Origin: Corallococcus silvisoli
GTDB lineage: Bacteria; Myxococcota; Myxococcia; Myxococcales; Myxococcaceae
Length of the DNA: 64,000 nucleotides
Assembly (NCBI RefSeq): GCF_009909145.1
Contig: NZ_JAAAPJ010000005.1
Coordinates: 336,470 to 400,469 of the forward strand
Reading direction: 5' to 3'
Part shown: in pieces, positions 1 to 16,040 of the stretch
Layout: every line of letters begins with the position of its first letter
Position numbering within the stretch: the stretch's first letter is position 1
The notes under the pieces: generated by a model
Told to the model about the DNA's origin: nothing
Database searches by the model: none
Seen by the model: the letters and a program-made list of their open reading frames with translations, nothing else
Position numbers and translations under genes: made by a program

Positions 1-238
1 CCAGATGCCCACCACGCTCTGGTTCACGGCCGACGCGCAGTTCACCACGGTGGAGTCCACGGGCGCGGCCACCGCCTGCTTCGTGCTCCTGCGCCACCTG
101 CTCGACCACCACGCGGGACAGTTCGAGTCACCGGGTCGTCCGCTGCACGAGCTGTACGTTCGGCTGAGGCAGGAGTGGGCGGCGTTCAACCCGTCCAACC
201 CCCTGCCAGGGGAGCCCCAGCGGTCCATGGCGGCCTAG
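1..238 (+). CDS. 3' end of a protein-coding gene (partial, start lies outside window); hypothetical protein
   Basis: Open frame running in from the window edge to TAG at 236-238; GC3-rich codon usage. No recognisable motif in the 77 aa seen. Confidence 0.4.
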   Translation, partial: QMPTTLWFTADAQFTTVESTGAATACFVLLRHLLDHHAGQFESPGRPLHELYVRLRQEWAAFNPSNPLPGEPQRSMAA

Positions 239-257
239 AGCGCCGAACAGGTCGGGT
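232..257. repeat. ~26-nt motif GGCC(C)TAGAGCGCCG[A/G]ACAGGTC[G/A]GGT spanning a stop codon; copy 1 of 2 (second copy at 2525-2551)
   Basis: Direct comparison of the two gene 3' ends: 17 of 19 nt identical after the TAG, plus a shared GGCC before it. Confidence 0.6.
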
Positions 258-501
258 ATTGGCGAGGCCGAGGACCGCGGTTGGTCCGAGCAGAGCCTCA
301 TCATCCCGGGACTGCCCCGCGCGGAGGCGGAGCGCTTCGGTCGCGCGCACGGTCAGGTGGCCGTCCTGGCGGATCGCACCGGAGGTCCCGCGGAGTTGCT
401 GCTGTGTGGCAACGAAGCGCCGCCATCCGCGCCATGAGCACGGGCAACAGCCGCGGACCCGTGTCGAGACGAAGTCGGGGCGCGAGCTTCACCGCGCCAC
501 C

Positions 502-4867: not shown

Positions 4868-5318
4868 CGAGATGAGCCTCCAGGATTCGGAATGGTGAGC
4901 CTTTGATAACTCACACCCAGAGTCTCAGTTGCTTCACCCTCGATGTCCATCACCGCGCCCCCGCCCTCCCGTTCTTCCGTGGCGGACGCCGCGGCGCGCA
5001 CGTGCGTGCGGTAGCGTTCCGGTGCGGGTGGATCGCCGGCTGGGCAGGGGATGCACTTGGGCACGAAGATGTCACCCAAGACGCGCTCCTTTTTCATCGC
5101 CAATGCGAGAAGCGTCGGGTGCCCCCATCCGCGATAAAAGCCGGCGAGCCAGACTGTATTCTAGTCGATACTCGGCGGGAGCGCGTCCATGAGCAGCCCG
5201 TGTATGAGGCATGCTGCTGGCGGGTCGGTATTGCCCGTCCAGGTTGGTGTTTGGATTGGAAGTCGAGCGCCTGGATTTGAGGGGGAGCCGTTGCGCGCCA
5301 TCCGAGATCGGGTGCTAC

Positions 5319-6671
5319 ATGAAAACCTGGATTCGCTTCCTGGGGAGTCGCGCCACTCAACTCCGGCAGACGGTGCTGGGAGCCCTCCAAGGCTCGGGCC
5401 TCGAGATGGTGTCGCGCCCGGAGGAAGCTCCCCCTGGCCTCGGAGTGATTGTCTTCGATGAAGTGGAAGCGAACACGCTGGAAGCCGTGCGGGACTGCCG
5501 GCTGAGCCCTTCGACACGGGTCCTCGCGGTGGCCACGACGGGCCAGGGACTCGGTGAAGGGGCTTGCTGGCGGCTGCTTCAGGCGGGAGCCTCGGACGTG
5601 CTCGTCTGGGAGGGCGCGCGTGACGCGGCGGCGGAGATCGCCGCACGGCTGGAGCGCTGGCACCAGGTGGAGCGGCTCATCGAGTCGCCCGCCGTGCAAC
5701 GGCGCCTGGTGGGCCGGGCCGCCACCTGGCTCCCGGTGCTGCGCCAGCTCGTGGAGGTGGCCGCGTTCACTGACGCCTCGGTGCTGCTGCTCGGGGAGAG
5801 CGGCACCGGCAAGGAGGAGATGGCCTGTCTCATCCACGAGCTGGACATGCGCCCGGACAAGCGGGAGCTGGTGACGCTGGACTGTACGACGGTGGTGCCG
5901 GAGCTGTCGGGCAGCGAGTTCTTCGGGCATGAGCGGGGCGCCTTCACGGGAGCGACGAACACCCGAGACGGGGCCTTCGCCCTGGCCCATGGCGGGACGC
6001 TGTTCCTGGACGAGGTGGGCGAGCTGCCCCTGGCCCTCCAGGCTCAGTTGCTGCGGGTGGTGCAGGAGCGTCTGTACAAGCGCGTGGGCTCCAACACCTG
6101 GCAGCGGACGGACTTCCGGCTCGTCTGCGCCACCAACCGCGAGCTGTCCCAGCAGGTCGCCCAGGGCGGCTTCCGCCGCGACTTCTTCCACCGCATCCTG
6201 AGCTGGGTGTGCCGGCTCCCGCCCCTGCGCGAGCGACCCGAGGACATCCTCCCGCTGGCCCAGCACTTCCTCCGGTCGATGCGACCCGACATGGCGCTCG
6301 AGCTGGATCCCCACGTGCGGGAGTACCTCCTCAAGCGCAGCTACCCGGGAAACATCCGGGAGCTGCGTCAGCTCATCGGGCGCCTCTGCAAGCGGCACGT
6401 GGGCACCGGGCCCATCACCGTGGGCGACATTCCCCCCGACGAGCTCCCTTCCTCCGAAGGGCTCGGGGACTGGCAGGACGTCTCGTTCGCGCAGGCCATC
6501 CAGCGCGCCCTGTCGCTCGGGGTGGGGCTCAAGGAGATTGGCCGGAGCGCCTCGGACACGGCCATCCGGCTGGCCCTCGCCGAGGAGCAGGGCAACCTCC
6601 AACGCGCCGCCCGGCGGCTGGGCGTCACGGACCGCGCGCTCCAGCTCCGCCGGGCCCAGCGCGACGAATAG
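5319..6671 (+). CDS. Sigma-54-dependent Fis-family transcriptional regulator (NtrC-like) with a degenerate receiver-like N-terminus
   Basis: Walker A GESGTGKE, the GAFTGA signature (GHERGAFTGA), Walker B LFLDEVGEL, an Arg-finger region and a C-terminal Fis-type helix-turn-helix (NLQRAARRLGVTDRALQLR). ATG at 5319 (MKTWIRF) chosen; the ORF-track start at 5211 has no support. Confidence 0.85.
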   Translation: MKTWIRFLGSRATQLRQTVLGALQGSGLEMVSRPEEAPPGLGVIVFDEVEANTLEAVRDCRLSPSTRVLAVATTGQGLGEGACWRLLQAGASDVLVWEGARDAAAEIAARLERWHQVERLIESPAVQRRLVGRAATWLPVLRQLVEVAAFTDASVLLLGESGTGKEEMACLIHELDMRPDKRELVTLDCTTVVPELSGSEFFGHERGAFTGATNTRDGAFALAHGGTLFLDEVGELPLALQAQLLRVVQERLYKRVGSNTWQRTDFRLVCATNRELSQQVAQGGFRRDFFHRILSWVCRLPPLRERPEDILPLAQHFLRSMRPDMALELDPHVREYLLKRSYPGNIRELRQLIGRLCKRHVGTGPITVGDIPPDELPSSEGLGDWQDVSFAQAIQRALSLGVGLKEIGRSASDTAIRLALAEEQGNLQRAARRLGVTDRALQLRRAQRDE

Positions 6672-6685
6672 CCGGAGTCATCGCC

Positions 6686-7522
6686 TCAGCATCCGCCGCC
6701 TCGGAGCGCATCGGGGGTCCAGGGGTCTCGCGGCTCTTCCTCCACCGAGGGGGCCGGGCCCTTCCAGGCAGACCTCCGCCCCAAGGGCCTTGGGCGGCAC
6801 CGGCCCATCAATCGCAGCAGGTTGCCCCCCAACACGAGCTGCCGGTCCTTCGGAGACAGCTCCAGCGCGAGCACCTTGGCCAGCTCCACCCCCGGGTGCA
6901 GCCACGGGCCATCCGAGCCGAAGAGCAGCTTGTGTGCCCCGGCCCGCTCCACCGCCTCCTCCAGCAGGTCGAAGCGGCGCACCCCAGCGGTGTCGGCGTG
7001 GACGTTGGGCAGGCGCGCCAGGAGGTCCAACAGCGCGCGCTGCGCTCGCCAGTCGTCCGCGAAGCTGCCCAGGTGCGGGATGATGAAGCTCACCTCCGGG
7101 TACTCGGTGGCGATCAACTCCACACCGGAGACTTCTCCCATCACGTCGTAGAGGATGGGCAGCGCGAAGGCCCGGGCCACCTCGCAGATCTCACGGGAGA
7201 TGCGCGCGTCGTAGCGGTGGACCTTGATGCCCCGGAAGCCGTAGCGCCGCACGGCCTCCTGGACCCGCTCGAAGACGCGCCCGCGGTCTCTCACGGCATG
7301 CACGAAGGCGAAGCCGTAGAAGCGCTCCGGGTGGCGTTTCACGAGGCGGGCCACCTGGCGATTCGCCGTGGCGTAGTCGGAGTGGAACGCGGCCAGCAGC
7401 ACCGTGCGGGAGATGCCCGCGGCGGACGCGCGCCGCAGGTAGTCCTCCAGCGGCGCGGAGGTGTCCCAGGGGCCGGTGAGCCCGTCGCCCTTCCCGGCAT
7501 GGCAATGGCAGTCGATGATCAT
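6686..7522 (-). CDS. Amidohydrolase-2-type metal-dependent TIM-barrel hydrolase; last gene of the six-gene operon
   Basis: Starts MIIDCHCHAG (the IDxHxH metal-binding motif), with later His/Asp ligands (IIPHLG, FGSDGPW). Lies 7 nt downstream of the GIY-YIG gene stop. The ORF-track extension to 7657 is rejected. Confidence 0.7.
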   Translation of the reverse strand: MIIDCHCHAGKGDGLTGPWDTSAPLEDYLRRASAAGISRTVLLAAFHSDYATANRQVARLVKRHPERFYGFAFVHAVRDRGRVFERVQEAVRRYGFRGIKVHRYDARISREICEVARAFALPILYDVMGEVSGVELIATEYPEVSFIIPHLGSFADDWRAQRALLDLLARLPNVHADTAGVRRFDLLEEAVERAGAHKLLFGSDGPWLHPGVELAKVLALELSPKDRQLVLGGNLLRLMGRCRPRPLGRRSAWKGPAPSVEEEPRDPWTPDALRGGGC

Positions 7523-7529
7523 CGTCGCG

Positions 7530-8516
7530 TCATCGGCGCTCGAACAGCTCGTAGAGCGCCTTGTCGGGGAGCGAGAGCGCGCGGTTGGCGATGCCAGGCG
7601 CCTTGGCGGCCCGGACGCCCCATGGATTCGGCGGGAGCAAGCCCTGGATGGAGACACCTCCTCTCACGCGGAACTGCCGGATGGAGCTCAGGTTGCGAAG
7701 GCGGCCCGCGGGGACGGCTCCAGAGAGCAGGAGCGCGCGGATCAGCGCATGCTCCACCGCCCTGCGAGCCTGTCGGGTGTTGGGCTGAATCGTCCCGAAC
7801 CAGACCGTGATGGGCTTGGGCAGCAGCCCCCCCTTCTGGGTGAGCCCCATCTGGTAGAGGCTCAGCAGGCGTCCTCGCCAGCGCCCCTGGAAGCTGTCCG
7901 TCTCGCCCACGTAGAGGGGAAGCCCCTCCTCCTCCACGACGTACAAGCCACCTCCGGCGGGAAGCGCGGAGAACGGGTGGCGATCAATCTTCCGCACCGA
8001 CCAGGAGAGGACCTTCGCGGTGACGGGGCCCCGCTGTGCCTCGAGCTCCTGCGACTCCGCGGGAGGGGGCCCGTCCTGCCCGGGCGGAGCGTCCGAGGGT
8101 TCCTCGGGAGGCGCCACATCCGGCGGCGGCTGCGCCGCGGCCACCGGCTCGACGCTGTCGGGAGGGGGCTCGTTCAGGGCCGGCTGGTAGAGCGGGTAGC
8201 CGTACGGCCCTCCGCCGTAGACCACCCAGGGGCGGCCCCTCGGCCACCGCCGCCCCGGCCTCGGCCCCTGCCCCTGCCCCTGCCCCTGCCCGGGGCTCCG
8301 CCACGCACGGGCCGGTCTCGAACCCGAACGCCAGACCTGCGCCCGGGGGACGCCCATCATCCCGCGTCCGACCCCGAACCGCCTCGCGCCGGGCTGGAGT
8401 GCACGAGCGCGGCGCGCAGGTGGCGCACGGAAGGACCGCGCGAAGTGGCCCTCCTCTTCGCCTTCCCACTCGGACTCCAACGCGTCTTCGCTCTCGTTCT
8501 CGTACCACTCATTCAT
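7530..8516 (-). CDS. GIY-YIG nuclease-motif protein with a long acidic/Arg-Gly-Pro-rich disordered N-terminal region
   Basis: GLYVVEEEGLPLYVGETDSFQGRWRGRL...RRAVEHALI resembles I-TevI GVYQIK..KVYVGSAKDFEKRWKRH and the Arg/Glu-His of GIY-YIG. Its ATG overlaps the upstream gene's stop (ATGAATGA). Confidence 0.6.
   Translation of the reverse strand: MNEWYENESEDALESEWEGEEEGHFARSFRAPPARRARALQPGARRFGVGRGMMGVPRAQVWRSGSRPARAWRSPGQGQGQGQGPRPGRRWPRGRPWVVYGGGPYGYPLYQPALNEPPPDSVEPVAAAQPPPDVAPPEEPSDAPPGQDGPPPAESQELEAQRGPVTAKVLSWSVRKIDRHPFSALPAGGGLYVVEEEGLPLYVGETDSFQGRWRGRLLSLYQMGLTQKGGLLPKPITVWFGTIQPNTRQARRAVEHALIRALLLSGAVPAGRLRNLSSIRQFRVRGGVSIQGLLPPNPWGVRAAKAPGIANRALSLPDKALYELFERR
8265..8291. repeat. 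(CCCCTG)4 hexanucleotide microsatellite encoding GQGQGQGQG in the GIY-YIG protein's disordered region
   Basis: Direct reading of 8265-8291. Confidence 0.8.
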
Positions 8517-9594
8517 GACGTGTCCTCCGCTGCTGCCTTCCGTCGACGGCTTCCACCAGCGCCTCCACTGCGTGAGTCAGCTCCTCCGCGCCGTGCCGCG
8601 CGGTGAGGATGAAGCTCACCGACACCTCCGGACCGCAGCGCGAGCGCTGGAGCACGGTCCGGATGCCACGCCGGTGCAGCCGCTCGTGGACCGCTCGCGG
8701 GTTCACCCCGCGAGGAAGCTGGATCCGCTGCACCGGGAACCGCCCGCCCACCGAGGCCAACCCCGACCGCCGCAGCCGCCCCCGGAAGTGCGCCACCCGC
8801 AGCGCCAGCGCCTCCCGGAGCGCGTCGCCTTTCCGGCGATTGATGGCCACCGCGTGCTCGGCGGCATGGAGATCCGCCACCGAAGGTGGACTGCAATGCA
8901 TCCGCGTCTCGCTGCGCTCCTCGTACCTGGCCACCACCCGCGCGCCGCCGGCCATCAGCGCCATCGGCACACCCAAGGCCTTCGCCATCGAGCCGCACCA
9001 CAGGACATCTGGCCCGTGGATGCCGTACCAGCGCAGCGAACCCCCTCCGCCGGCTCCGTATGGCAGGCCGGGCCCCGGCATGCCGAACACTCCCAAGGCT
9101 TGGGTGTCGTCCAGGATGAGCAGGCCCCCATGGGCCCGGACCACCTCCAGGTACGCGTCGAGCGGCGCCAGCGCGCCGCAGCCCGGACACCAACCGTCGC
9201 AGACCACCACCGGCCGGAGCCCCTGGCGCGGCGCCCGTGCCAGGAGCCTCGCCAGGGCCTCGGGCGAATGATGGGGAAAGCTCCTCACGGGTCCGCCGCG
9301 CGCCACCACCCGCTCGAACCCCCACCGCACCACCGGGTAGCTGCCTTCATCCCAGTAGAGGGCCACGGGGCGCCCCGCGAGCGCTCCGAACACGTCCCAG
9401 AACAGGTGCAGCGTGGAGCGGGCGAACAGCCCCCGCTCGCAGCCCACCAGCTCCGCCAGGGCGCGTGACGTCTCTTGCGTTCCGGGGGGCTCCTCGAGGA
9501 TGGCCGGAGTGCCCAGGGTGAGCCGCTCCCACGGCGCGAGCGATCCGCTGGAGTGCTCCAGGCCCAGGTAGAGCGCGGAGGTGAAGTCGAGCAC
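8509..9594 (-). CDS. PLP-dependent aminotransferase class I/II fold enzyme, alpha-oxoamine synthase family (AONS/KBL/SPT-like), N-terminally short
   Basis: LDFTSALYLGL (AONS LDFxSNDYLGL), DDTQALGVFG (DExHxxG) and the PLP-lysine motif GSMAKALG. At 361 aa it is shorter than typical AONS and lacks the first ~40 residues. Confidence 0.75.
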   Translation of the reverse strand: MLDFTSALYLGLEHSSGSLAPWERLTLGTPAILEEPPGTQETSRALAELVGCERGLFARSTLHLFWDVFGALAGRPVALYWDEGSYPVVRWGFERVVARGGPVRSFPHHSPEALARLLARAPRQGLRPVVVCDGWCPGCGALAPLDAYLEVVRAHGGLLILDDTQALGVFGMPGPGLPYGAGGGGSLRWYGIHGPDVLWCGSMAKALGVPMALMAGGARVVARYEERSETRMHCSPPSVADLHAAEHAVAINRRKGDALREALALRVAHFRGRLRRSGLASVGGRFPVQRIQLPRGVNPRAVHERLHRRGIRTVLQRSRCGPEVSVSFILTARHGAEELTHAVEALVEAVDGRQQRRTRHE

Positions 9595-9609: not shown

Positions 9610-11466
9610 TCACCGCCTCCGCTGCAGGGCCAGCCGGTTGCGCAGGTGCACCGAGGGGGACACGTAGCGCTCCGCCAGGCGCTGCTGGTCGGTGATGTCG
9701 ACCGCGAGGTCCACGCCGGTGACGGCCCGGTACGCGTGGATGTAGCCCTGGATCTCCGGCCGCCAGTAGCGCGCCCAGTTGGCGGCCTGGTTCGGGTCGT
9801 TCGTGATGCTCCACGCGCCGTAGCGCACGGCCAGGAGCACCTGCTCGCCGTAGACGGCGAGGTCGTGGAAGTGCACCACGCTGACGTCCGTCCACCCCAG
9901 GAGCGACTTCATCGCATCCACCCGGTCCATCCACGGCTCCGGGTAGGGCACCATCACCCGCCCGCCGAGGAACTCGCGCATCTCCGGGCGCGACAGCAGC
10001 CACTGCTGCATCAGCATCTCCTGGCGCGCGGTGGAGGGCATGTCTCCGAACTGGTTATGGGCCCCCTGCGCCAGCAGGTAGTGCGTCTCCTTGAGCGAGT
10101 TGAGCACCGGGAAGCCGTCCGACACCACGGTGGTGTCATCGTCCTGCCGGAAGAACTGCACGCATTGGTGGAGCAGGTTGTGGAAGGACTCGAGGAACTT
10201 CGAGCGCCGATCCGCGGTGCGCATCCCGGACACGGCCTTGCCGTGCAGCGTGAAGCCATATTCGTGGTCGTACTCGTGGGCGCGGCGCACGACGCTCAGC
10301 CGGTGCTGCTCGTCCTGGAGGTAGCCCCACAACACGTTGTTGAGGGGCCGCAGCGGATCGATCTCCATGTTCGCCAGCGGATCCCGGTCCCCGGGCCCGC
10401 GCACGTTCTGGAAGCGATTGCTGATGTAGTTCATCGCCTGGACCAGCATTCCCTCCTCGTGCCAGTAGTTCCAGATGAGCTCCAGGAAGGTGGGGTAGCC
10501 CAGCTTCTGCTGGAGGATGCCGTAGCAAGCGGCGTAGTCGTCCTCCGGAATGTTCCGAGGCGCGATGACCGGCACGTCGGGGAGCTTGTTGCGGATGATC
10601 GCCAGGTAGGGGAGCGCGACATCGGCGCTTCCGTTCACATCCTCCAGGTAGTGCTTCCACACGACCTCGAAGTCGAAATCGCGAGGAAGCGTCTGGCCGA
10701 GGCGACCGCCCTCCACGCGCGCGTCCAGCTTGTCCAGCAGCTCCGTGAAGTCCACCAGCACGCCCGTGCGCTCCAGCATGAAGGCCTCGGTCAGGGCCTT
10801 CAGCTTCCGGTAGGCATCCACGCCAGGGAATGGCAGCCGGAGCTTGGGCTTGCGGATCGGGGTCGGCCTGCCCGGGCCCGGCAGGCCCGTGCCCGGGTCC
10901 GTCATGTGGTCGGGCGGGCAGAGGTGTGCGTCGATGAACCGGCTGTATTGATCGAAGGAGAGCCAATCGGTGGTCTTGCGGATGACCATCCAGAGGATGA
11001 CGTCGGTCGTCAGCGGATGAAGGGTGCGCTGCAGCGCCACGGGGAGGACAGGCATGCGTCCAGCCGCGCCGAAGGAGTTGAGCTCGTTGAGCGCTTCGCG
11101 CACCACCTCCCGGACGTTCCTGTCGCCCTCTCCCGGGAGGAGGGTCAGCGACTGTTCGGCTTCCCAGGTGAACGCGGGCCTGGTGGAGCCCGCCCCTTCG
11201 AACTCCTCGAGGATGACCTTGGCCTTGAGGACGCCCGCGCGCCTCGAGCTGGGAATCGTCCAGGTCGCGTGGCCATTGAGCTCCTGCCTGTCCGCGCTGG
11301 ACTTGGAGACCGGGGGTTCGACGCTGCCGGCCTCCACGGACCATCTGTAGACCCGATGCGTGAGCTTCGGGTTCACGTGGACGGGGGACGCCGACAGTTC
11401 GACGGTGGCACCCGAAGCGCTCGAGGTGACGGTGGTGGGTGAGAGAGTGAGTGTGACGCCAGCCAT
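9610..11466 (-). CDS. Hypothetical protein (618 aa), no recognisable domain; possible N-terminal beta-sandwich
   Basis: Long ORF with GC3-rich codon usage. Strong Shine-Dalgarno GGAGG 8 nt upstream of ATG at 11466. A TTG at 11481 sits 2 nt after the upstream stop. Confidence 0.6.
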   Translation of the reverse strand: MAGVTLTLSPTTVTSSASGATVELSASPVHVNPKLTHRVYRWSVEAGSVEPPVSKSSADRQELNGHATWTIPSSRRAGVLKAKVILEEFEGAGSTRPAFTWEAEQSLTLLPGEGDRNVREVVREALNELNSFGAAGRMPVLPVALQRTLHPLTTDVILWMVIRKTTDWLSFDQYSRFIDAHLCPPDHMTDPGTGLPGPGRPTPIRKPKLRLPFPGVDAYRKLKALTEAFMLERTGVLVDFTELLDKLDARVEGGRLGQTLPRDFDFEVVWKHYLEDVNGSADVALPYLAIIRNKLPDVPVIAPRNIPEDDYAACYGILQQKLGYPTFLELIWNYWHEEGMLVQAMNYISNRFQNVRGPGDRDPLANMEIDPLRPLNNVLWGYLQDEQHRLSVVRRAHEYDHEYGFTLHGKAVSGMRTADRRSKFLESFHNLLHQCVQFFRQDDDTTVVSDGFPVLNSLKETHYLLAQGAHNQFGDMPSTARQEMLMQQWLLSRPEMREFLGGRVMVPYPEPWMDRVDAMKSLLGWTDVSVVHFHDLAVYGEQVLLAVRYGAWSITNDPNQAANWARYWRPEIQGYIHAYRAVTGVDLAVDITDQQRLAERYVSPSVHLRNRLALQRRR

Positions 11467-11483
11467 GATTCCATCCTCCAACG

Positions 11484-12827
11484 CTAGGTGACGACGTTCC
11501 GCGGCAACGCGGGAGCCCGGAGCACCGACGCCAGGGTCCGCGACTTCGAGAGTGACGCGCAGGTCTCGGACGCATCGAGCGTGCTGCGCAGGGCCCAGTA
11601 CTTGAGGAGCTCGGCCAGGGCCTTGCTCTCCTCCTCGGGAGTGATGGCCCCGTCGGCCCTGGCCTGCCCGATGACGGCGAACACCAGCGAGGGCGGCGAC
11701 TCACGAATGCGGGAGCGCCGGGCGCGCCACTCCCGGTACAGCTCGGAGAGCCGGTCTGGCTGACGCTCCCGCGTCTTCATGACCTCCACCAGCGTGCGTC
11801 CACGAAGGGACTCCGGCCGGTGCTCCACCAGGAGCCGCGCGATGCGCGGCAGGCTCGCCTCGAGCGCGCCGAGCACCCGGCGGTGCTGCTCGGACAGTCC
11901 GTCGATGGGGTAGAACGCCTTCCACAGTCGCGCCAGCCGCGCCCACTGCGGATGCGGATACAGCAGTCCGCCCAGCGCGCTGCTCAGCTTGACGCGGATC
12001 CACGGGATGGGATGGGGGTCGTCCATGTTCAGCCGGAACACGAACGGCCGCGGCAGGCTCACCACCCCCATCAGCCCCACCGTGGCGGTCACCCCCACGC
12101 GAGCCACCGACCAGAAATCCGCGACGACCTCCGAGATCCACCGCTCCCACAGGCCCCAGACCAGCGCGTCCTCGGGCCCTTCACGCGGCACGTCGCGCAG
12201 GGCCACGCGGAGCGAGGCCACCAGGTCCAGCAGCGCCGCCCCCTGGTGCCCCACCTCGTGGAAGAGGGAGGACGCGAGGCTGCTGCCGATCATCCGCTCG
12301 CGGGGGACGCGGATGATGGCCACCGGGTTCGCCCCGCCGCCGGGCAGACGCGTGCGCGCCCGGCGGATGGCCGCTCCGGGGCCGCGAGCCAGGTAGCAGA
12401 TGACGGGCGGCGCCTCGTAGTACCCCGGCAGCTCCAGCGCGTTCTTGGAGAGCACGTCCAGCCCCGCCAGCCAGACGCCGTTGTCCGCCTCGCTGCGCTG
12501 GCTCATGGCCTCGCTGAAGATGTCGAACTGCGACAGCACCACGTTGAAGCGCAGCCGCAGGAAGGTGAAGCGCCGCTGCGCCTCGGCGGGGGCCGCGTGT
12601 CGGCCCCAGGGGCCCTCCAACCACGCGAGGTACTGGTGGATCTGCGTCCGTAGCTCACGGCGCCCCTTGACCAGGTAGCTCTCCAACGCCGCCTGCGCTT
12701 CGACGGAGAGCGTGGCCGCTGGGACCATCGTCTCCGACATGGCGAAGGACTTGATGCGCTCGAGCCGGGTGAGCAGCGCGCGGGCCTCCTGTGACAGCAT
12801 CCAGGAGGCGAAGGAGCCGGAGGACAT
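11484..12827 (-). CDS. Hypothetical protein (447 aa) with an HExxH zinc-metallopeptidase-like motif (SLFHEVGHQ)
   Basis: Long ORF, typical codon usage, with HEVGH in a hydrophobic context. No signal peptide; family not recognised. Confidence 0.6.
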   Translation of the reverse strand: MSSGSFASWMLSQEARALLTRLERIKSFAMSETMVPAATLSVEAQAALESYLVKGRRELRTQIHQYLAWLEGPWGRHAAPAEAQRRFTFLRLRFNVVLSQFDIFSEAMSQRSEADNGVWLAGLDVLSKNALELPGYYEAPPVICYLARGPGAAIRRARTRLPGGGANPVAIIRVPRERMIGSSLASSLFHEVGHQGAALLDLVASLRVALRDVPREGPEDALVWGLWERWISEVVADFWSVARVGVTATVGLMGVVSLPRPFVFRLNMDDPHPIPWIRVKLSSALGGLLYPHPQWARLARLWKAFYPIDGLSEQHRRVLGALEASLPRIARLLVEHRPESLRGRTLVEVMKTRERQPDRLSELYREWRARRSRIRESPPSLVFAVIGQARADGAITPEEESKALAELLKYWALRSTLDASETCASLSKSRTLASVLRAPALPRNVVT

Positions 12828-12833
12828 GGTGGC

Positions 12834-13463
12834 TCAGACCCCGTAGAGGATGATCTTGTTGCCCTTGCGCACCCAGCGGCCACTGCGGCCACCGGTGCCC
12901 GCGGCGTGCGGCATCTGGGCGGCGAAGCCAGGGGCGAACTTCTGGATGGCCTGGTGGACGGCGGCGCCAGCCACCTGCTGGGGCGAAGCATTGTCGGGCG
13001 AGTTGAGGGCCGTCTTGGAGGCGTCCGAGGCGAGTCGGACAATCTGCCGGGCCACCTCGAACTCGCGGTCCTCCTGGCTCAGGCCCTCCAGTTCGAGCCC
13101 GAACGCCTGGCCCGCCATGGAGGCCAGCTTGCCACCGACGGCGCCGCCCACGCCGGGGACCACGAGGTTGCCGAGCGCGCTGCCCACCATCGGCAGGGCC
13201 TGCCTGGCCAGTCCCTTGAGCATGCCCCCGAGCTGCTTGCCCAGCGGAGACTTCACGACCTTGCCGACGGCGCTGCCCACCTTCTTGATGATGTTGCCGA
13301 GGAACTGATCCAGCTCCTGCTCGTTGCTGACCTCCAGCAGCTCCGAGGCGAGCTCGTTCAGCTCGTTCTCGTTGAAGACCTCGCCCCACTCCGACTCGGC
13401 GTTGAACTCGAACTCGAACGACTCCCCCTCCAGTTCCTGGTAGGTGCGATCCACGTCATGCAT
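12834..13463 (-). CDS. Hypothetical small protein (209 aa): acidic N-terminus, Gly/Lys-rich amphipathic central segment, basic C-terminus; first gene of the operon
   Basis: ATG at 13463 (MHDVD) preceded by GAGGAA. The ORF-track extension to 13712 is rejected. Low-complexity composition is visible directly in the sequence. Confidence 0.55.
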   Translation of the reverse strand: MHDVDRTYQELEGESFEFEFNAESEWGEVFNENELNELASELLEVSNEQELDQFLGNIIKKVGSAVGKVVKSPLGKQLGGMLKGLARQALPMVGSALGNLVVPGVGGAVGGKLASMAGQAFGLELEGLSQEDREFEVARQIVRLASDASKTALNSPDNASPQQVAGAAVHQAIQKFAPGFAAQMPHAAGTGGRSGRWVRKGNKIILYGV

Positions 13464-13520
13464 GGTCAGTTCCTCGTGTGATGGGGCCGGCTTCGTGGCC
13501 GCGGGTTCGGACCGGGCATA

Positions 13521-13536
13521 AGCAGCGGCTGTGCCA
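13521..13536 (-). promoter_or_regulatory. Candidate sigma-54 (-24/-12) promoter TGGCAC-agccg-CTGCT upstream of the six-gene operon
   Basis: Reverse complement of 13521-13536 reads TGGCACagccgCTGCT. GG and GC are separated by the canonical 10 nt. It lies ~58-73 nt upstream of the ATG at 13463. Confidence 0.4.
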
Positions 13537-13766
13537 ACCCCGCCGAGGGTCGCTCCTGCTCTGGGAGTCAGGGCGCGGGAGCGAAGCGCGCTTCGGCGGC
13601 GCCGGCCGAACGGGAGATTCGGCGAAGCAGGCTTCGGCGCCCCGTCATGGCCCCGTGGGCTCCGGGCGAGTCCCCCCCCTGGCGAGGGCATTCGTCCCCT
13701 CGCCGTCGCCATTCGCGGGGCCGTCGGCTAGCGTTCGGCCCTCTCCGCGGAACAAGAGGGGGGCCC

Positions 13767-16040
13767 ATGCGCGTCGTACCGTCCATCCTGGAATCCGTCA
13801 CCGTTCACGCCGAAGGCGCGCTGTGCACCCGCGCGCTCGTGCTCTCCCCCGAGGACGGGCACCTGCCCGAACAGGTCCGCGTCGACGGCCTGCCCCTGGC
13901 CCTGCGAACAGCGACCCTGCGCGCCCGCGTGGTGGAGGGCCCCACCGGGCTCCTCGTCCGCGACCTGCGGCCCACGTTCGACGTGCGGCTGCCCGCCGAA
14001 TCGGACCTGCCCGCGGAGCTGCACGCGGCCGAAGCGGCGGAGGCCGCGCTGTCGGACGTGCTGGGCCGGCTGGAGCGGGTGCGCGCGGAGCTGGAGACCC
14101 TTCAGGGACTGGCGCCCTCCTTCCCGCCCCAGCGCAAGGGCCAGCTCCCGCGCGAGGCGCCCCTCGCCGCGATGCTGGCGCTGACGGGCTTCGTGGACGC
14201 GGAGCTGACGGCGCTGCATGCCCAGCGGCTGGAGCTGGAGCGGCAGTACCGCGACGCCACCCAAGAGCTGGAGCTGCGCCGCCGCCGCGTCCAGGAGCTG
14301 TCCTCCGCGCGAAGCGTGGACCGGGCCCGGCTCTTCCGCGCGGCCCTCCTCACGCTGTCCGGCCCCATCGCCGCGAACGCGGAGGCGCGCCTGGTGTTGG
14401 AGTACGCCGTGGCGGGCGCGCGATGGGTGCCCACCTACGACCTGCGCCTGCCGCGCACGCTGGAGGAAGGCACGCTGCGCATGCGTGCCGCCGTCATCCA
14501 GCGGACCGGCGAGGACTGGAAGGGGGTCCGGCTGTCGGTCTCCACCGCGAGCCTGGAGCGGCGCGCGGTGGTGCCGGAGCTGAAGTCGCTGCGCATCGGC
14601 CGCAGCCAGCCGGCGCCCGTGCGCTCGGGATGGCGTGAGCCCGCGCCGGGCCTGGACGAGCTGTTCGCGGGCTACGACGCCATGACGGTGCCGCCCCCTC
14701 TCGCGATGCCCGAGCCTCTTCCGCCCCCTCCGATGGACGAGCTGGACGCGGATGAGGACTCGTTCGGGAGCGTGGTGGCCTTCGAGGAGTCCTTGAAGGA
14801 GAAGTCGCCGAAGGCGATGTCGTCCTCGTATGGGGGCGCGCCGGGCGCTCCGCCCATGGCGCCCCCTTCCGTCTCCCGGCCCGCGCCGCCGCCCATGCCG
14901 GCTCCCAAGGCCGCGGCCCCCGCGCTGGGCGGAGTCCGCCCGTCGGCGGCCCCGAGCCGGAACCTCAGCGACGGCGGAGACCTCAGCCGGAGTTTCCGGC
15001 GGGATGCCCCGGGCCGGGGCGGCGGCGGGATGAGCAAGAAGCGCGCGGCCGAGGAGGAGAGCCTCGATGATGCCCCGATGATGGACCTGTCATCGGACCT
15101 CTCGGACGGCGAGGGCGGCGGCGGGGAGTCGCGGCGCACGAGGGCCCTGGAGCCCGCGGACAGCCTGTTCGACTACGACTCGCTGACGCTGGCCCCTCCG
15201 GGCGCTCCAGCCGAGCGCGGCCGGCTGACGCCCCGGCCGGCGCTCATCACGCAGGCGAGGCTGTCCGTCACTTCCGTGAGTCTCCAGGTCGAAGTGGTGC
15301 GCCTGGAGGCCCAGGCCTTCGTCACCGCCGAGTCCGTGAACACCGTGCCGCCGCCCACGTGGGCGGTGGCGCCGCGCGACTCCGCCCGGCACTTCGACGC
15401 GCGCTTCGACGCGGAGGCGGTCGCGGACGTGCCCGCCGACGGCGCGTGGCACACGGTGCCCATGCTGACGGTGCCCCTGGAGTTCCGCGCCGAATACGTC
15501 TGCGTGCCTTCGGTGGAGCCGCGGGTCTTCCGCACGGTGCGCCTGGACAATCGGACACCGCACCCGCTGCTCGCGGGGCCCGTGGACGTGACGCTCGGGG
15601 ATGAGTTCCTGATGACCTCTCCGCTGCCCACGCTCGGGCCCGGCGAGACGCAGCGGCTGGGATTGGGCGTGGAGGAAGCGATCCAGGTGGCGCGCAACAC
15701 GCGCTTCGAGGAAGCGACGGGCGGCATGTTCGGCAACAACACCGTCCTCACGCACCACGTCTCCGTGGAGGTGACCAACCACCTCGCGCGTCCCGCGACG
15801 CTCGCCATCTCCGAGCGCATCGGCGCGGTGCCCGAGTCCCAGAAGGACCTCAAGGTCGAGGAGGCGGAGGTCATCCCGCCCTGGCAGAAGCCCACGCCCC
15901 TGCCCGGAGAGGTCGCGGTGGAGGGCGAGCGGGTCTGGCGCATGAGCATGCCCGCCGGAGAGAAGCGTTCGATGAAGGCGACATGGGTCGTGAAGCTGCC
16001 CGGCAACAAGATGCTGTACGGCGGGAACCGGAGGACATGA
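13767..16040 (+). CDS. DUF4139/MuiA-like (myxobacterial paralogous family) protein with a Pro/Ala-rich central linker
   Basis: Long ORF with ATG at 13767 (MRVVPSILESVTV). Shares architecture and short motifs (WVPTYDLRLP compared with AWRPAYRAAL) with the next gene. Family assigned from memory only. Confidence 0.6.
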   Translation: MRVVPSILESVTVHAEGALCTRALVLSPEDGHLPEQVRVDGLPLALRTATLRARVVEGPTGLLVRDLRPTFDVRLPAESDLPAELHAAEAAEAALSDVLGRLERVRAELETLQGLAPSFPPQRKGQLPREAPLAAMLALTGFVDAELTALHAQRLELERQYRDATQELELRRRRVQELSSARSVDRARLFRAALLTLSGPIAANAEARLVLEYAVAGARWVPTYDLRLPRTLEEGTLRMRAAVIQRTGEDWKGVRLSVSTASLERRAVVPELKSLRIGRSQPAPVRSGWREPAPGLDELFAGYDAMTVPPPLAMPEPLPPPPMDELDADEDSFGSVVAFEESLKEKSPKAMSSSYGGAPGAPPMAPPSVSRPAPPPMPAPKAAAPALGGVRPSAAPSRNLSDGGDLSRSFRRDAPGRGGGGMSKKRAAEEESLDDAPMMDLSSDLSDGEGGGGESRRTRALEPADSLFDYDSLTLAPPGAPAERGRLTPRPALITQARLSVTSVSLQVEVVRLEAQAFVTAESVNTVPPPTWAVAPRDSARHFDARFDAEAVADVPADGAWHTVPMLTVPLEFRAEYVCVPSVEPRVFRTVRLDNRTPHPLLAGPVDVTLGDEFLMTSPLPTLGPGETQRLGLGVEEAIQVARNTRFEEATGGMFGNNTVLTHHVSVEVTNHLARPATLAISERIGAVPESQKDLKVEEAEVIPPWQKPTPLPGEVAVEGERVWRMSMPAGEKRSMKATWVVKLPGNKMLYGGNRRT

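What the first reader, a model, noticed from the sequence alone, without database searches (positions are those of the whole stretch)
12834..13463. First operon gene encodes an acidic pro-region-like N-terminus followed by a cecropin-like cationic Gly/Lys amphipathic segment
Residues ~10-55 are strongly acidic (ELEGESFEFEFNAESEWGEVFNENELNELASELLEVSNEQELDQF). Residues ~56-125 are Gly/Lys/Ala/Val-rich with a G-x-x-x-G periodicity and a Pro hinge (NIIKKVGSAVGKVVKSPLGKQLGGMLKGLARQALPMVGSALGNLVVPGVGGAVGGKLASMAGQAFG). The C-terminus is basic (SGRWVRKGNKIILYGV). The charge-neutralising acidic propiece plus a cationic amphipathic helix is the architecture of membrane-active peptide precursors. An HExxH protein is encoded immediately downstream and could be its processing peptidase. 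Alternatively this could be a membrane- or granule-associated structural protein.
Basis: inference. Interest (0 to 1): 0.55.

Follow-up and report, generated by a model that had tools for sequence, protein, structure and literature searches.

The report
Tagged glycine-zipper protein, unknown σ54 cassette
The gene is real, but it encodes a folded, highly conserved 209-residue protein rather than a cecropin-like peptide precursor. It leads a widespread, undescribed sigma-54-controlled gene cluster that in other genomes carries signal-less cell-wall hydrolases bearing the same short tags.

Summary
The minus-strand CDS 12834-13463 encodes 209 aa: an acidic N-terminus (residues 1-55, net -17), a Gly/Lys-rich segment (56-122, net +8, 24% Gly) and a basic C-terminus. 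An invariant HExxH protein follows 6 nt downstream.

The cecropin-like precursor reading is not supported.
- The family has at least 1760 clusters across more than 10 phyla and is conserved over its full length (50-75% identity).
- It has no signal peptide, TM segment or exporter.
- AlphaFold2 (pLDDT 77) puts the Gly/Lys helices inside a compact helical domain. Only residues 1-25 are disordered, and the C-terminus forms a β-hairpin.

The gene leads a conserved cassette with no Pfam, NCBIfam, PADLOC or PDB assignment for its three core proteins.
- Order: two UAS palindromes, a σ54 promoter, g1 (one to three paralogues), HExxH g2 (75/75 loci), g3 (68/68), a BioF-like PLP enzyme, variable proteins, Amidohydro_2, and a convergent σ54 activator.
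- The variable proteins are signal-less peptidoglycan binders and hydrolases. They carry g1-like acidic/aromatic N-termini or the GRW hairpin, and some are fused to a g1 module.

My best guess (about 0.35) is that g1 is an amphitropic, holin-like membrane-engaging core subunit of a regulated cell-wall cassette, with g2 processing or recognising the tags.

The parts
13623..13636 (.). Distal palindrome CGAAGCAGGCTTCG, a candidate binding site (UAS) for the cluster's σ54 activator
   Evidence: Together with 13582-13595 these are the only two CGAAGC-N2-GCTTCG sites in 64 kb (expected 0.02). The site is invariant in the upstream alignment with two other myxobacterial loci. The core GAAGC-N2-GCTTC occurs upstream of the first g1 gene in 27 related loci, often as pairs 41-43 bp apart. 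Binding itself is inferred.
13582..13595 (.). Proximal palindrome CGAAGCGCGCTTCG, the second candidate UAS, 46 nt upstream of the -24 element
13521..13536 (-). σ54 (-24/-12) promoter TGGCACAGCCGCTGCT
   Evidence: It is the only match to TGGCAC-N5-YTGCW in the window. It is conserved in L005 and L006. A σ54-type motif occurs upstream of the first g1 in 23 of 72 related loci, against a background of 0.0087 per 600 nt.
13470..13475 (-). Shine-Dalgarno GAGGAA, 6 nt before the ATG
   Evidence: Read from the sequence.
12834..13463 (-). g1: the 209-aa tagged glycine-zipper protein (the finding)
   Evidence: ORF and translation. 1760 homologous clusters. 2363 clusters at 50% identity in the representative library. 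AlphaFold2 pLDDT 77, pTM 0.69.
13380..13463 (-). g1 residues 1-28: invariant MHD-x-DRT start followed by a disordered acidic/aromatic tag (FEFEF, ESEW)
   Evidence: pLDDT below 50 for residues 1-3 and 6-25. Length and sequence vary, but the acidic/aromatic composition is conserved. Similar N-termini occur on other cluster proteins.
13098..13298 (-). g1 residues 56-122: cationic Gly/Lys/Ala 'glycine-zipper' helices (H48-66, H72-93, H108-121) with a low-confidence VPGVGG loop
   Evidence: Weak, compositional similarity to the Gly-rich segments of phage tape-measure proteins and tail lysins (PHROGs E = 9e-4 to 0.07).
12837..12881 (-). g1 residues 195-209: basic β-hairpin tag GRWVRKGNKIILYGV
   Evidence: Strands 196-200 and 203-207. 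G195, R196 and W197 are invariant in A1, and W197 is invariant in A2. The motif is found in 113 g1-family ORFs and 8 accessory cluster proteins. One other, divergent hit occurred in 1.78 M residues of six-frame ORFs of the loci.
11484..12827 (-). g2: 447-aa HExxH protein (HEVGH 190-194 = nt 12246-12260; E233-x3-D237)
   Evidence: More than 5700 homologous clusters, 61-87% identical to the window protein in a 61-sequence alignment spanning several phyla. There is no Pfam, NCBIfam or PDB relative. It is adjacent to g1 in 75 of 75 loci.
9610..11481 (-). g3: 623-aa protein with a variable N-terminal Ig-like β-sandwich and a conserved ~470-aa helical C-terminal region of unknown fold
   Evidence: Present in 68 of 68 loci.
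8509..9594 (-). g4: divergent BioF/Kbl/CqsA-like PLP-dependent α-oxoamine-synthase-family enzyme
   Evidence: Pfam Aminotran_1_2 at 1e-9. NCBIfam bioF scores 60 bits, far below the 426-bit cutoff. Present in 40 of 54 loci.
7530..8516 (-). g5: 328-aa protein with an acidic/aromatic N-terminus (MNEWYENESEDALESEWEGEEE), an Arg/Pro-rich linker and a GIY-YIG-like C-terminal domain
   Evidence: Translation. Alignment with relatives shows GGG-[LV]-Y...P-L-Y-V-G-E-T...R...E-H-A-L. The only Pfam GIY-YIG hit is weak and in a homologue (E = 0.005).
6686..7522 (-). g6: Amidohydro_2 metal-dependent hydrolase (likely start MIIDCHCH at 7522)
   Evidence: Pfam PF04909 at 4.6e-23. Translation. Present in 43 of 54 loci.
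5211..6671 (+). Convergent σ54 enhancer-binding protein: an unknown ~160-aa N-terminal domain, an AAA+ σ54-interaction domain and an HTH_8 domain
   Evidence: Pfam. PDB relatives cover only residues about 151-473. Within 10 kb of g1 in 42 of 54 loci.

Best explanation
**What it is (well supported)**
- g1 is the promoter-proximal gene of a widespread, previously undescribed gene cassette under σ54 and enhancer-binding-protein control.
- It is made in the cytoplasm with no export signal.
- It has four parts:
  - an invariant MHD-x-DRT start;
  - a disordered acidic/aromatic N-terminal tag;
  - a compact α-helical domain that includes two cationic amphipathic Gly-zipper helices and a small-residue helix;
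  - a basic β-hairpin tag, GRWxRxGxxIxLxG.
- Both tags are specific to this cassette. They also occur on the cassette's variable proteins, which in other genomes are signal-less peptidoglycan binders and hydrolases. Some of these are fused directly to a g1 module.

**How it probably works (inferred)**
- When the dedicated activator fires the σ54 promoter, g1 accumulates as a soluble, charge-balanced bundle.
- The invariant HExxH protein g2, probably together with g3, recognises or trims the tags.
- g1 then opens and its Gly-zipper helices engage the inner membrane, as amphitropic pore-formers and holins do.
- This gives the co-encoded wall enzymes access to peptidoglycan. They are attached covalently, or possibly by pairing of an acidic strand with the basic hairpin.
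- The outcome would be regulated wall remodelling, lysis or release.
For: **Regulation**
- The unique σ54 promoter lies 58 nt upstream of the g1 ATG.
- Two palindromes unique in the window are conserved across phyla upstream of g1.
- A σ54-type motif is enriched upstream of g1 in related loci: 23 of 72, against about 0.6 expected.
- An activator gene is adjacent in 42 of 54 loci.

**Synteny**
- g2 is present in 75 of 75 loci, g3 in 68 of 68, g4 in 40 of 54 and g6 in 43 of 54.
- Two or more g1 copies occur in 34 of 80 loci.

**Fold**
- AlphaFold2 gives pLDDT 77 and pTM 0.69. Helices span 32-183, the hairpin spans 196-207, and residues 1-25 are disordered.

**Membrane-active character**
- μH is about 0.6 for residues 49-75, with 11 GxxxG-type motifs, net +8, and the highest hydrophobicity at 92-110.
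- g1 is the only core protein with a Gly-rich hydrophobic segment, and no core protein has a TM segment or signal peptide.
- There is weak similarity to the membrane-inserting Gly-rich parts of tape-measure proteins and tail lysins.

**Link to cell wall**
- In-cluster proteins carry PG_binding_1, Amidase_2, Muramidase, Peptidase_M15_4/VanY, OmpA and Rv2525c-like glycoside hydrolase domains.
- A g1 module is fused to the C-terminus of Amidase_2 (L066) and PG_binding_1 (L019) proteins.

**Shared tags**
- N-terminal 40 aa have net charge ≤ -6 in 49% of g1 and accessory ORFs, against 2-4% of core and flanking ORFs.
- An acidic Φ-x-x-E-P-F type N-terminus occurs in 11 of 137 in-cluster ORFs against 3 of 1609 outside.
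- The GRW hairpin occurs in 113 g1 ORFs and 8 accessory proteins, with only one other, divergent hit.

**g2 active-site-like residues**
- H190, E191, H194, E233 and D237 are invariant.
Against: - Nothing here shows membrane binding, pore formation, proteolysis or export. All mechanistic steps are inference.
- g1's most hydrophobic stretch (KD 1.36) is below TM thresholds, and the model is a soluble bundle.
- The window's own cassette contains no peptidoglycan hydrolase. Its only tagged accessory protein is the GIY-YIG-like g5. The wall connection is therefore by homology of context, not present locally.
- g1 has no structural similarity to colicin-type, Bcl-2-type or holin proteins.
- The very strong conservation and the absence of an immunity gene fit a housekeeping-type interaction. 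They would equally fit a non-membrane scaffold.
- The roles of g3, g4 and g6 are unexplained. The g3 model was too poor to use.
- g2 matches no peptidase family.
Confidence: 0.35

Rival explanations
1. One reading: g1 is the precursor of a secreted cecropin-like cationic antimicrobial peptide. An acidic propiece neutralises the peptide, and the HExxH peptidase removes it.
For: - The acidic/cationic split is real and conserved.
- Residues 49-75 are strongly amphipathic.
- The HExxH gene is always adjacent.
Against: - There is no signal peptide, leader or exporter.
- The protein is conserved over its full length across more than 10 phyla at 50-75% identity.
- The Gly/Lys segment lies within a confidently folded ~150-residue domain. 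Half of the proposed propiece (residues 32-55) is part of that fold.
- There is no AMP or bacteriocin family hit.
Confidence: 0.05
2. A bacteriocin-like antagonism cassette. g1 (membrane toxin), g5 (GIY-YIG-like nuclease) and the peptidoglycan hydrolases are toxins aimed at neighbouring bacteria. The acidic tags serve as in-cis immunity or pro-regions. Release is by lysis of a producer subpopulation or by an exporter encoded elsewhere.
For: - The effector repertoire (wall hydrolases, nuclease-like protein, Gly-zipper protein) resembles that of T6SS, T4SS, T7SS and colicin systems.
- The variable 'cargo' region lies between conserved genes.
- The cationic blocks following the acidic tags resemble outer-membrane-permeabilising segments.
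Against: - No immunity-like membrane proteins and no secretion machinery are in the cluster.
- g1 is far more conserved than interbacterial toxins usually are.
- PADLOC gives no match, and there are no phage relatives.
Confidence: 0.15
3. A non-membrane role. g1 is a soluble scaffold, adaptor or chaperone that docks tagged enzymes through its hairpin and acidic tags. Alternatively it is a PspA-like feedback regulator of the adjacent σ54 activator. On this view the Gly-rich helices are simply tight helix-packing motifs.
For: - The model is a compact soluble bundle whose Gly-rich helices pack inside it.
- Hydrophobicity is below the TM threshold.
- Concatenated multi-module g1 proteins and tandem paralogues suggest oligomeric assemblies.
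- Being the first gene of a σ54 operon next to its activator parallels pspA/pspF.
Against: - There is no PspA/ESCRT-III or other known scaffold fold.
- The activator has its own ~160-aa N-terminal sensor domain, unlike PspF.
- This view does not explain how signal-less wall enzymes reach the wall.
Confidence: 0.2
4. A RiPP-like pathway. The tandem g1 paralogues are precursor proteins that are modified or cleaved by g2, g3, the PLP enzyme g4 and the amidohydrolase g6.
For: - Precursor-first operon order with tandem paralogous first genes.
- Adjacent uncharacterised enzymes, including an HExxH protein and a PLP enzyme.
Against: - There is no hypervariable core. The C-terminus and the Gly segment are the conserved parts.
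- The protein is 209 aa and folded.
- No RiPP-recognition, cyclase, radical-SAM or transporter families are present.
- This view does not account for the tagged peptidoglycan enzymes.
Confidence: 0.07
5. A granule- or inclusion-associated structural protein (phasin-like or gas-vesicle-like).
For: - Amphipathic helices and likely high expression as the first operon gene.
Against: - No PHA or gas-vesicle genes are in the cluster.
Confidence: 0.03

Closest known systems
Phage-type holin/endolysin cassettes and holin-dependent ('type 10') secretion
   Same: Signal-less peptidoglycan hydrolases (Amidase_2, muramidase, M15/VanY, PG_binding_1) are co-encoded with a small protein that is the only candidate for membrane activity. 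Expression is tightly regulated.
   Different: g1 has no TM helix and is a ~150-residue soluble helical bundle. It has no phage relatives. The cassette has an invariant HExxH protein, a 600-aa unknown protein, a PLP enzyme, an amidohydrolase and its own σ54 activator, none of which belong to lysis cassettes. The window's copy has no hydrolase.
Glycine-zipper membrane toxins and translocation motifs (Caulobacter CdzC/D, T6SS Tse4 and Tde1, T7SS TelE; PMC10240207 and PMC10434224 for the last two)
   Same: Repeated GxxxG/small-xxx-small motifs occur in a cationic or hydrophobic segment. In related loci the segment is associated with wall-degrading or nuclease-like partners.
   Different: There is no sequence homology and no T1SS, T6SS or T7SS context. 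The g1 zipper lies inside a larger conserved fold that carries two extra tags.
Cationic antimicrobial peptide precursors with anionic propieces (cecropins, defensins)
   Same: An acidic N-terminal block precedes a cationic amphipathic block. A metalloprotease-like gene is adjacent.
   Different: g1 has no secretory signal, is not a short peptide, is not taxon-restricted or fast-evolving, and is predicted to fold as one domain.
Phage-shock system (pspF-pspA, σ54)
   Same: A σ54 promoter with upstream activator sites drives an operon whose first product is a ~210-aa helical protein with membrane-interaction potential. The activator gene is adjacent.
   Different: There is no PspA/IM30 homology or ESCRT-III-like fold. 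The activator has an N-terminal sensor domain, and the operon content is unrelated.
Gly-rich membrane-inserting segments of phage tape-measure proteins and tail-associated lysins
   Same: Weak profile similarity over g1 residues 56-149 (PHROGs E = 9e-4 to 0.07). Like some of those proteins, the g1 module can be fused to a peptidoglycan hydrolase.
   Different: The similarity is compositional. There are no tail genes and no relatives in IMG/VR or BFVD.
Gluzincin metallopeptidases (HExxH + downstream Glu), as a comparator for g2
   Same: HExxH is invariant. An invariant E-x3-D lies 39 residues after the second His.
   Different: No detectable similarity to any Pfam, NCBIfam or PDB peptidase. The fold was not modelled.

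Membership tests
Cecropin-type / linear cationic AMP precursor | N-terminal secretory signal, or a dedicated leader plus exporter | tested here: not met
   The N-terminus is MHDVDRTYQELEGES (acidic). The maximum KD19 is 1.36 and lies internally. No transporter gene is in the operon.
Cecropin-type / linear cationic AMP precursor | A short (20-40 aa) mature amphipathic peptide released from a propiece | tested here: not met
   AlphaFold2 places residues 30-185 in one helical domain, and the proposed propiece residues 32-55 are part of it. Release was not tested experimentally.
Cecropin-type / linear cationic AMP precursor | Sequence membership in an AMP family | tested here: not met
   No Pfam or NCBIfam hit at E ≤ 1.
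Class II bacteriocin (double-glycine leader) | A GG-type leader with a cognate C39-peptidase ABC exporter and an immunity gene | tested here: not met
   No ABC/C39 gene or small membrane protein in this cluster or in 80 related clusters. The E50-L51-x2-F54-L55-G56 stretch resembles a leader by eye only, and it lies mid-helix in the model.
Holin | A small protein with at least one transmembrane helix | tested here: not met
   Maximum KD19 is 1.36, below 1.6, and the predicted fold is a soluble bundle.
Holin | Co-encoded with signal-less endolysin-type enzymes | tested here: inconclusive
   Met in many related loci but not in the window's own cassette.
Glycine-zipper membrane proteins (Pfam Gly-zipper families, DUF697) | Profile match to a Gly-zipper family or to DUF697 | tested here: not met
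   No Pfam hit at E ≤ 1. JGI's 'DUF697 family' label on some homologues is not reproduced.
Glycine-zipper membrane proteins (Pfam Gly-zipper families, DUF697) | Repeated GxxxG motifs in a helical hydrophobic or amphipathic segment | tested here: met
   11 motifs in residues 56-122, with helices 48-66, 72-93 and 108-121.
Colicin/Bcl-2-type pore-forming bundle | A helical bundle with a buried hydrophobic hairpin and structural similarity to known members | tested here: not met
PspA/IM30 (σ54 envelope-stress effector) | PspA_IM30 homology or an ESCRT-III-like fold | tested here: not met
PspA/IM30 (σ54 envelope-stress effector) | First gene of a σ54 operon with an adjacent activator gene | tested here: met
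Phasin / gas-vesicle protein | Homology to Phasin, Phasin_2 or GvpA/J families | tested here: not met
Zincin (gluzincin) metallopeptidase, for g2 | HExxH with a third zinc ligand Glu downstream | tested here: met
   H190, E191, H194, E233 and D237 are invariant in 61 sequences.
Zincin (gluzincin) metallopeptidase, for g2 | Zincin fold, or homology to a MEROPS/Pfam peptidase family | tested here: not met
   No hit by single sequence, by profile against PDB, or by scanning 61 members against Pfam at E ≤ 5.
Zincin (gluzincin) metallopeptidase, for g2 | Proteolytic activity on g1 or tagged proteins | not testable with these tools
   Needs biochemistry or N-terminomics.
Known anti-phage defence systems | Match to a PADLOC model | tested here: not met
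   None of the six operon proteins matches at E ≤ 0.1.

The most novel reading that the evidence does not exclude
The window contains one copy of a previously unrecognised, phylogenetically widespread envelope system. The system is a self-regulating σ54 cassette. Its parts are:
- a dedicated activator and conserved paired UAS palindromes;
- possibly a small-molecule loop through the CqsA/BioF-like enzyme and the amidohydrolase;
- a novel zincin-like protein (g2) and a novel ~470-aa domain protein (g3).

On this reading g2 and g3 recognise two short portable tags: the acidic/aromatic N-terminus and the GRW β-hairpin. The tags sit on a Gly-zipper protein and on signal-less peptidoglycan hydrolases or nuclease-like proteins. 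Recognition would move these proteins across or into the inner membrane without Sec, Tat or any known secretion ATPase.
Probability: 0.3. Interest if true: 0.85.

Novelty: categorically new. Interest (0 to 1): 0.72.

Why it matters
**How large and uncharacterised the families are**
- The three core protein families are large. At E ≤ 1e-3 the searches found 1760 (g1), 5723 (g2) and 3501 (g3) 90%-identity clusters. The g2 and g3 counts come from capped candidate lists.
- They are highly conserved: g2 is 61-87% identical to the window protein in a 61-sequence alignment that spans several phyla.
- They occur in ecologically important bacteria, including Nitrospira, Nitrosomonas, methanotrophs, Acidobacteriota, Myxococcota, Bacteroidota, Planctomycetota and rhizobial megaplasmids.
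- They have no Pfam, NCBIfam, PADLOC, PDB or literature assignment.

**Why the context is informative**
- The cassette combines signal-less wall hydrolases carrying cassette-specific tags, a Gly-zipper protein, a putative zincin and a private σ54 switch.
- This points to an unknown way of getting proteins to the cell wall, or of triggering regulated lysis.

**What follows if that is true**
- It would add a new class to bacterial export or lysis mechanisms.
- It would supply two short, transferable targeting tags.
- It would make the function of thousands of 'hypothetical proteins' testable.

**What stands even if the mechanism is wrong**
- The cassette is defined with its promoter, UAS and tags, giving a clean experimental entry point.

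Tried and rejected
**Family and structure searches that found nothing**
- Pfam, NCBIfam, PADLOC and PHROGs scans of g1, g2 and g3 found no family. The exceptions were weak, compositional PHROG hits of the g1 Gly segment to tape-measure proteins and lysins.
- PDB sequence searches found nothing real, with single sequences or with 26-61-sequence profiles. The only g1 hits were designed helical repeats at E = 8e-5, which are low-complexity Ala/Glu helices.
- The afdb50 library was unavailable.

**Models that did not help**
- I spent the second structure prediction on g3 rather than g2. It returned a poor model (pLDDT 64, pTM 0.38).
- In hindsight g2 might have been the better choice, so the g2 fold remains untested.
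- Scanning 61 g2 homologues against Pfam at E ≤ 5 showed no recurring peptidase family.

**Context searches**
- The IMG/VR scan found no g1 relatives, so a phage origin is rejected.
- The plasmid search with g2 gave four megaplasmid or chromid hits without annotation.
- Six literature searches, including locus tags MYSTI_01850-01853, found no description of the cluster.

**Ideas considered and rejected**
- An HExxH motif in g3 (HEYDH): its first His is not conserved.
- A double-glycine leader in g1: no exporter is present, and the motif lies mid-helix.
- A Tat signal in the Arg-rich linkers: they lack an h-region (by eye).
- A genomic island: GC content is flat at 0.67-0.73.
Full report
**1. 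The observation**

The finding's coordinates delimit a real CDS on the minus strand, with ATG at 13463 and TGA at 12834-12836. A GAGGAA ribosome-binding site lies 6 nt upstream.

The composition is as described:
- Residues 1-55 carry 18 acidic and 1 basic residue (net -17).
- Residues 56-122 carry 8 basic and no acidic residues (net +8). They are 24% Gly and contain 11 GxxxG-type motifs.
- Residues 191-209 are net +5.
- Residues 49-75 have a helical hydrophobic moment of about 0.6.
- The most hydrophobic 19-mer (92-110) averages KD 1.36, below the usual transmembrane threshold.

The ORF on the opposite strand (12906-13481) is a shadow ORF of the kind common in 70% GC DNA.

The next gene starts 6 nt after the stop. 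It encodes a 447-aa protein with HEVGH at residues 190-194.

**2. It is a large, conserved family, not an orphan peptide gene**

- A search of 5.8 billion proteins returned 1760 clusters at E ≤ 1e-3. The listed best hits nearly all cover the full length, at 50-100% identity. The window sequence is 100% identical to a Corallococcus protein.
- An exhaustive profile search of 1.84 billion cluster representatives found 2363 clusters, 1137 of them at E ≤ 1e-30. Many of these contain two to four concatenated modules.
- A scan of one genome per GTDB species found 205 relatives. They come from Myxococcota, Planctomycetota, Nitrospirota, Acidobacteriota, Chloroflexota, Bacteroidota, Verrucomicrobiota, Desulfobacterota and alpha-, beta- and gamma-proteobacteria.
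- Alignments show several conserved features:
  - a near-invariant MHD-x-DRT start;
  - a length-variable but always acidic/aromatic stretch;
  - a highly conserved E-L-x-x-E-L-L...E-L-x-x-F-L-G helix pair;
  - the conserved Gly/Lys segment;
  - an almost invariant G-L-E-L-E-G-L-S-x-E-D-x-E-F-E motif;
  - A-P-G;
  - a variable linker;
  - the C-terminal G-R-W-x-R-x-G-x-x-I-x-L-x-G.
- The charge split is conserved in 70 homologues, with medians of -9, +7 and +4.
- The Gly/Lys segment is among the best conserved parts, with a top-residue frequency of 0.74-0.82. This is the opposite of what is seen in host-defence or bacteriocin peptides.
- No Pfam, NCBIfam, PADLOC or PDB relative exists.
- JGI's 'DUF697' label on some homologues is not reproduced by Pfam.

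**3. Structure**

AlphaFold2 with a 70-sequence alignment gave mean pLDDT 77 and pTM 0.69.
- Residues 1-25 are disordered.
- Helices span 32-43, 48-66, 72-93, 108-121, 130-153, 161-176 and 178-183, mostly at pLDDT 88-95.
- The VPGVGG loop (94-107) has low confidence.
- The C-terminus forms a β-hairpin at 196-200 and 203-207.

The cationic Gly-rich helices are therefore part of a compact ~150-residue domain.

**4. Genomic context: a conserved σ54 cassette**

*Gene order in the window, on the minus strand*
- g1 (12834-13463).
- g2, the HExxH protein (11484-12827).
- g3 (9610-11481).
- g4, a divergent BioF/Kbl/CqsA-like PLP enzyme (8509-9594).
- g5 (7530-8516).
- g6, Amidohydro_2 (6686-7522).
- A convergent σ54 enhancer-binding protein at 5211-6671 (+) follows.

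*Promoter and upstream sites*
- The only σ54 promoter consensus in 64 kb lies at 13521-13536 (-).
- Upstream of it are the only two CGAAGC-N2-GCTTCG palindromes in the window, at 13582-13595 and 13623-13636 (expected 0.02).
- Both palindromes and the promoter are invariant in an alignment with two other myxobacterial loci.
- The palindrome core recurs upstream of the first g1 gene in 27 related loci from several phyla. It often occurs as pairs 41-43 bp apart.
- A σ54-type motif occurs upstream of g1 in 23 of 72 loci, against about 0.6 expected.

*Synteny across 80 genome loci*

| Feature | Loci with it / loci with room |
|---|---|
| g2 follows g1 | 75 / 75 |
| g3 | 68 / 68 |
| g4 | 40 / 54 |
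| g6 | 43 / 54 |
| activator within 10 kb | 42 / 54 |
| two or more g1 paralogues | 34 / 80 |

*Properties of the neighbours*
- g2 (5723 clusters from a capped candidate list) is 61-87% identical to the window protein in a 61-sequence alignment that includes proteins labelled Planctomycetota, Methylomirabilis, Nitrospira, Chloroflexi, Massilia and Competibacteraceae. H190, E191, H194, E233 and D237 are invariant.
- g2 matches no peptidase family by sequence or profile.
- No protein of the operon has a signal peptide or a segment reaching KD 1.6.
- The cluster contains no transporter and no ATPase other than the activator.
- It is not phage-derived. It matches no PADLOC defence model. It shows no compositional island signature.

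**5. The key new observation: portable tags and cell-wall enzymes**

In related loci the variable region between g4 and g6 encodes proteins with peptidoglycan-related domains. The domains found are PG_binding_1, Amidase_2, Muramidase, Peptidase_M15_4/VanY, OmpA and an Rv2525c-like glycoside hydrolase. An M20 peptidase appears in 13 loci.

None of these proteins has a Sec signal by eye. Instead they start with an acidic, aromatic-rich stretch, often Φ-x-x-E-P-F-E-Φ. This resembles the FEFEF/ESEW stretch of g1. An Arg/Pro-rich basic linker commonly follows.

The tags are statistically specific to the cluster:
- The N-terminal 40 residues have net charge ≤ -6 in 49% of g1 and accessory ORFs, against 2% of core ORFs and 4% of flanking ORFs.
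- The acidic EPF-type start occurs in 11 of 137 in-cluster unassigned ORFs against 3 of 1609 elsewhere.
- The C-terminal GRW hairpin motif was found in 113 g1-family ORFs and 8 accessory proteins. In the accessory proteins it sits at the C-terminus or just after the acidic N-terminus. One other, divergent hit appeared in 1.78 million residues of six-frame ORFs.

A third g1 paralogue type is fused to the C-terminus of an Amidase_2 protein in L066 and a PG_binding_1 protein in L019.

In the window, the only accessory protein is g5. It has:
- an acidic/aromatic N-terminus (MNEWYENESEDALESEWEGEEE);
- an Arg/Pro-rich linker;
- a GIY-YIG-like C-terminal domain (Pfam support is weak).

**6. Interpretation**

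*Shown*
- g1 is a folded, conserved, cytoplasmically synthesised protein.
- It is the lead gene of a σ54/EBP-controlled cassette.
- Its two terminal motifs are shared, cassette-specific tags.
- The cassette is thematically linked to peptidoglycan.
- g2 carries an invariant gluzincin-like motif.

*Inferred (about 0.35)*
- g1 is an amphitropic, holin-like membrane-engaging subunit.
- g2 and g3 recognise or process the tags.
- The result is that signal-less wall enzymes gain access to the wall, producing remodelling, lysis or release.

*For the inference*
- g1 is the only core component with membrane-interaction features.
- It has a weak resemblance to the Gly-rich membrane-inserting parts of tape-measure proteins and tail lysins.
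- Covalent g1-hydrolase fusions exist.

*Against the inference*
- Hydrophobicity is below the TM threshold.
- The model is a soluble bundle.
- No hydrolase is present in the window's own cassette.
- The roles of g3, g4 and g6 are unexplained.

*Speculation only*
- The BioF/CqsA-like enzyme plus the amidohydrolase might make a small molecule sensed by the activator's unknown N-terminal domain.

*Rivals*

| Rival explanation | Confidence |
|---|---|
| Soluble scaffold or regulator | 0.2 |
| Bacteriocin-like effector set | 0.15 |
| RiPP-like precursor | 0.07 |
| Phasin-like structural protein | 0.03 |

**7. Comparison with known systems, and novelty**

The cassette resembles holin/endolysin modules, glycine-zipper toxins, pro-AMP charge neutralisation and the Psp system in single respects. 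It fails the defining features of each (see the membership table).

Six full-text literature searches found no description of it. I therefore rate it as lying outside known kinds of system. The caveat is that its function is unproven, and a description outside the searchable library cannot be excluded.

**8. Verdict**

The charge architecture and the HExxH linkage are real, but the cecropin-like secreted peptide is not.
- What is actually there is more interesting than proposed: the lead gene of a widespread, uncharacterised σ54-controlled envelope cassette with portable tags.

Noticed in passing
window 13582-13595 and 13623-13636; L002, L004, L006, L009, L013, L029, L056, L080 about 150-350 nt upstream of g1: Paired palindromes GAAGC-N2-GCTTC, spaced 41-43 bp apart, are conserved upstream of the σ54 promoter across several phyla. 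This implies that the activator, its binding sites and the promoter travel together with the cassette.
   Followed up: partly
window 7530-8516 (-): g5 has an acidic/aromatic N-terminus, an Arg/Pro/Gly-rich linker including a QGQGQGQG run, and a GIY-YIG-like C-terminal domain (GGGLYVV...LPLYVGET...R...EHALIR...LRN). Relatives occur in L004, L005, L006, L024, L050, L051 and L065. The L051 copy ends in a PG_binding_1-like segment (by eye).
   Followed up: partly
window 9610-11481 (-), residues ~330-620: The most conserved part of g3 has dozens of invariant residues, for example ELIW-YWHEEGML, RFQN, GAHNQFGD and WARYWRPEIQGYIHAY. AlphaFold2 nevertheless predicts it with very low confidence (pLDDT 35-65) from a 60-sequence alignment. 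It may need a partner (g2?) or an oligomeric state to fold.
   Followed up: no
window 8509-9594 (-): The BioF-like enzyme keeps the PLP lysine context (GSMAKALG). However, it has Gln where BioF-type enzymes have the His of the DDxH motif (LILDDTQALG). The same Gln is seen in the Variovorax homologue L050. Both points were read by eye. The enzyme scores far below every NCBIfam α-oxoamine-synthase cutoff.
   Followed up: no
L001 9093-9821 (-); L023 8517-9497 (-): A divergent g1-like paralogue lies on the opposite strand, next to the cassette. It has repeated EQF[LI]G-x-[LI]-[LV]-G-G-L-F-G units and an altered C-terminal hairpin (TWVRQGDRLIF / GRWVRSGSRIII).
   Followed up: no
P0242 (1036 aa), P0244, P0246, P0251: Proteins exist with two to four concatenated g1 modules. 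In P0244 the first module lacks the GRW hairpin and runs straight into the next acidic tag. This suggests that g1 paralogues act as hetero-oligomers.
   Followed up: partly
L016 16440-17789 and 12 other loci: An M20/M25/M40 peptidase (ArgE/DapE/PepV-like) gene recurs inside the cassette, between g4 and g6.
   Followed up: partly
window 13647-16040 (+) and 15983-17599 (+): Two tandem DUF4140/DUF4139 proteins are transcribed divergently from g1. The first has a long Pro/Ala/Gly-rich insert. They are not conserved next to the cassette in other genomes.
   Followed up: no
NC_010625.1 (Paraburkholderia phymatum STM815, 1.9 Mb replicon) 1554793-1556049; Rhizobium sp. CCGE531/532 and Ensifer adhaerens megaplasmids: g2 homologues, and so probably the cassette, lie on rhizobial megaplasmids or chromids. 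P. phymatum would be a genetically tractable host with published σ54 work.
   Followed up: no
window 175-2532 (+): A 785-aa 5'-nucleotidase/metallophosphoesterase that appears unrelated to the cassette.
   Followed up: no
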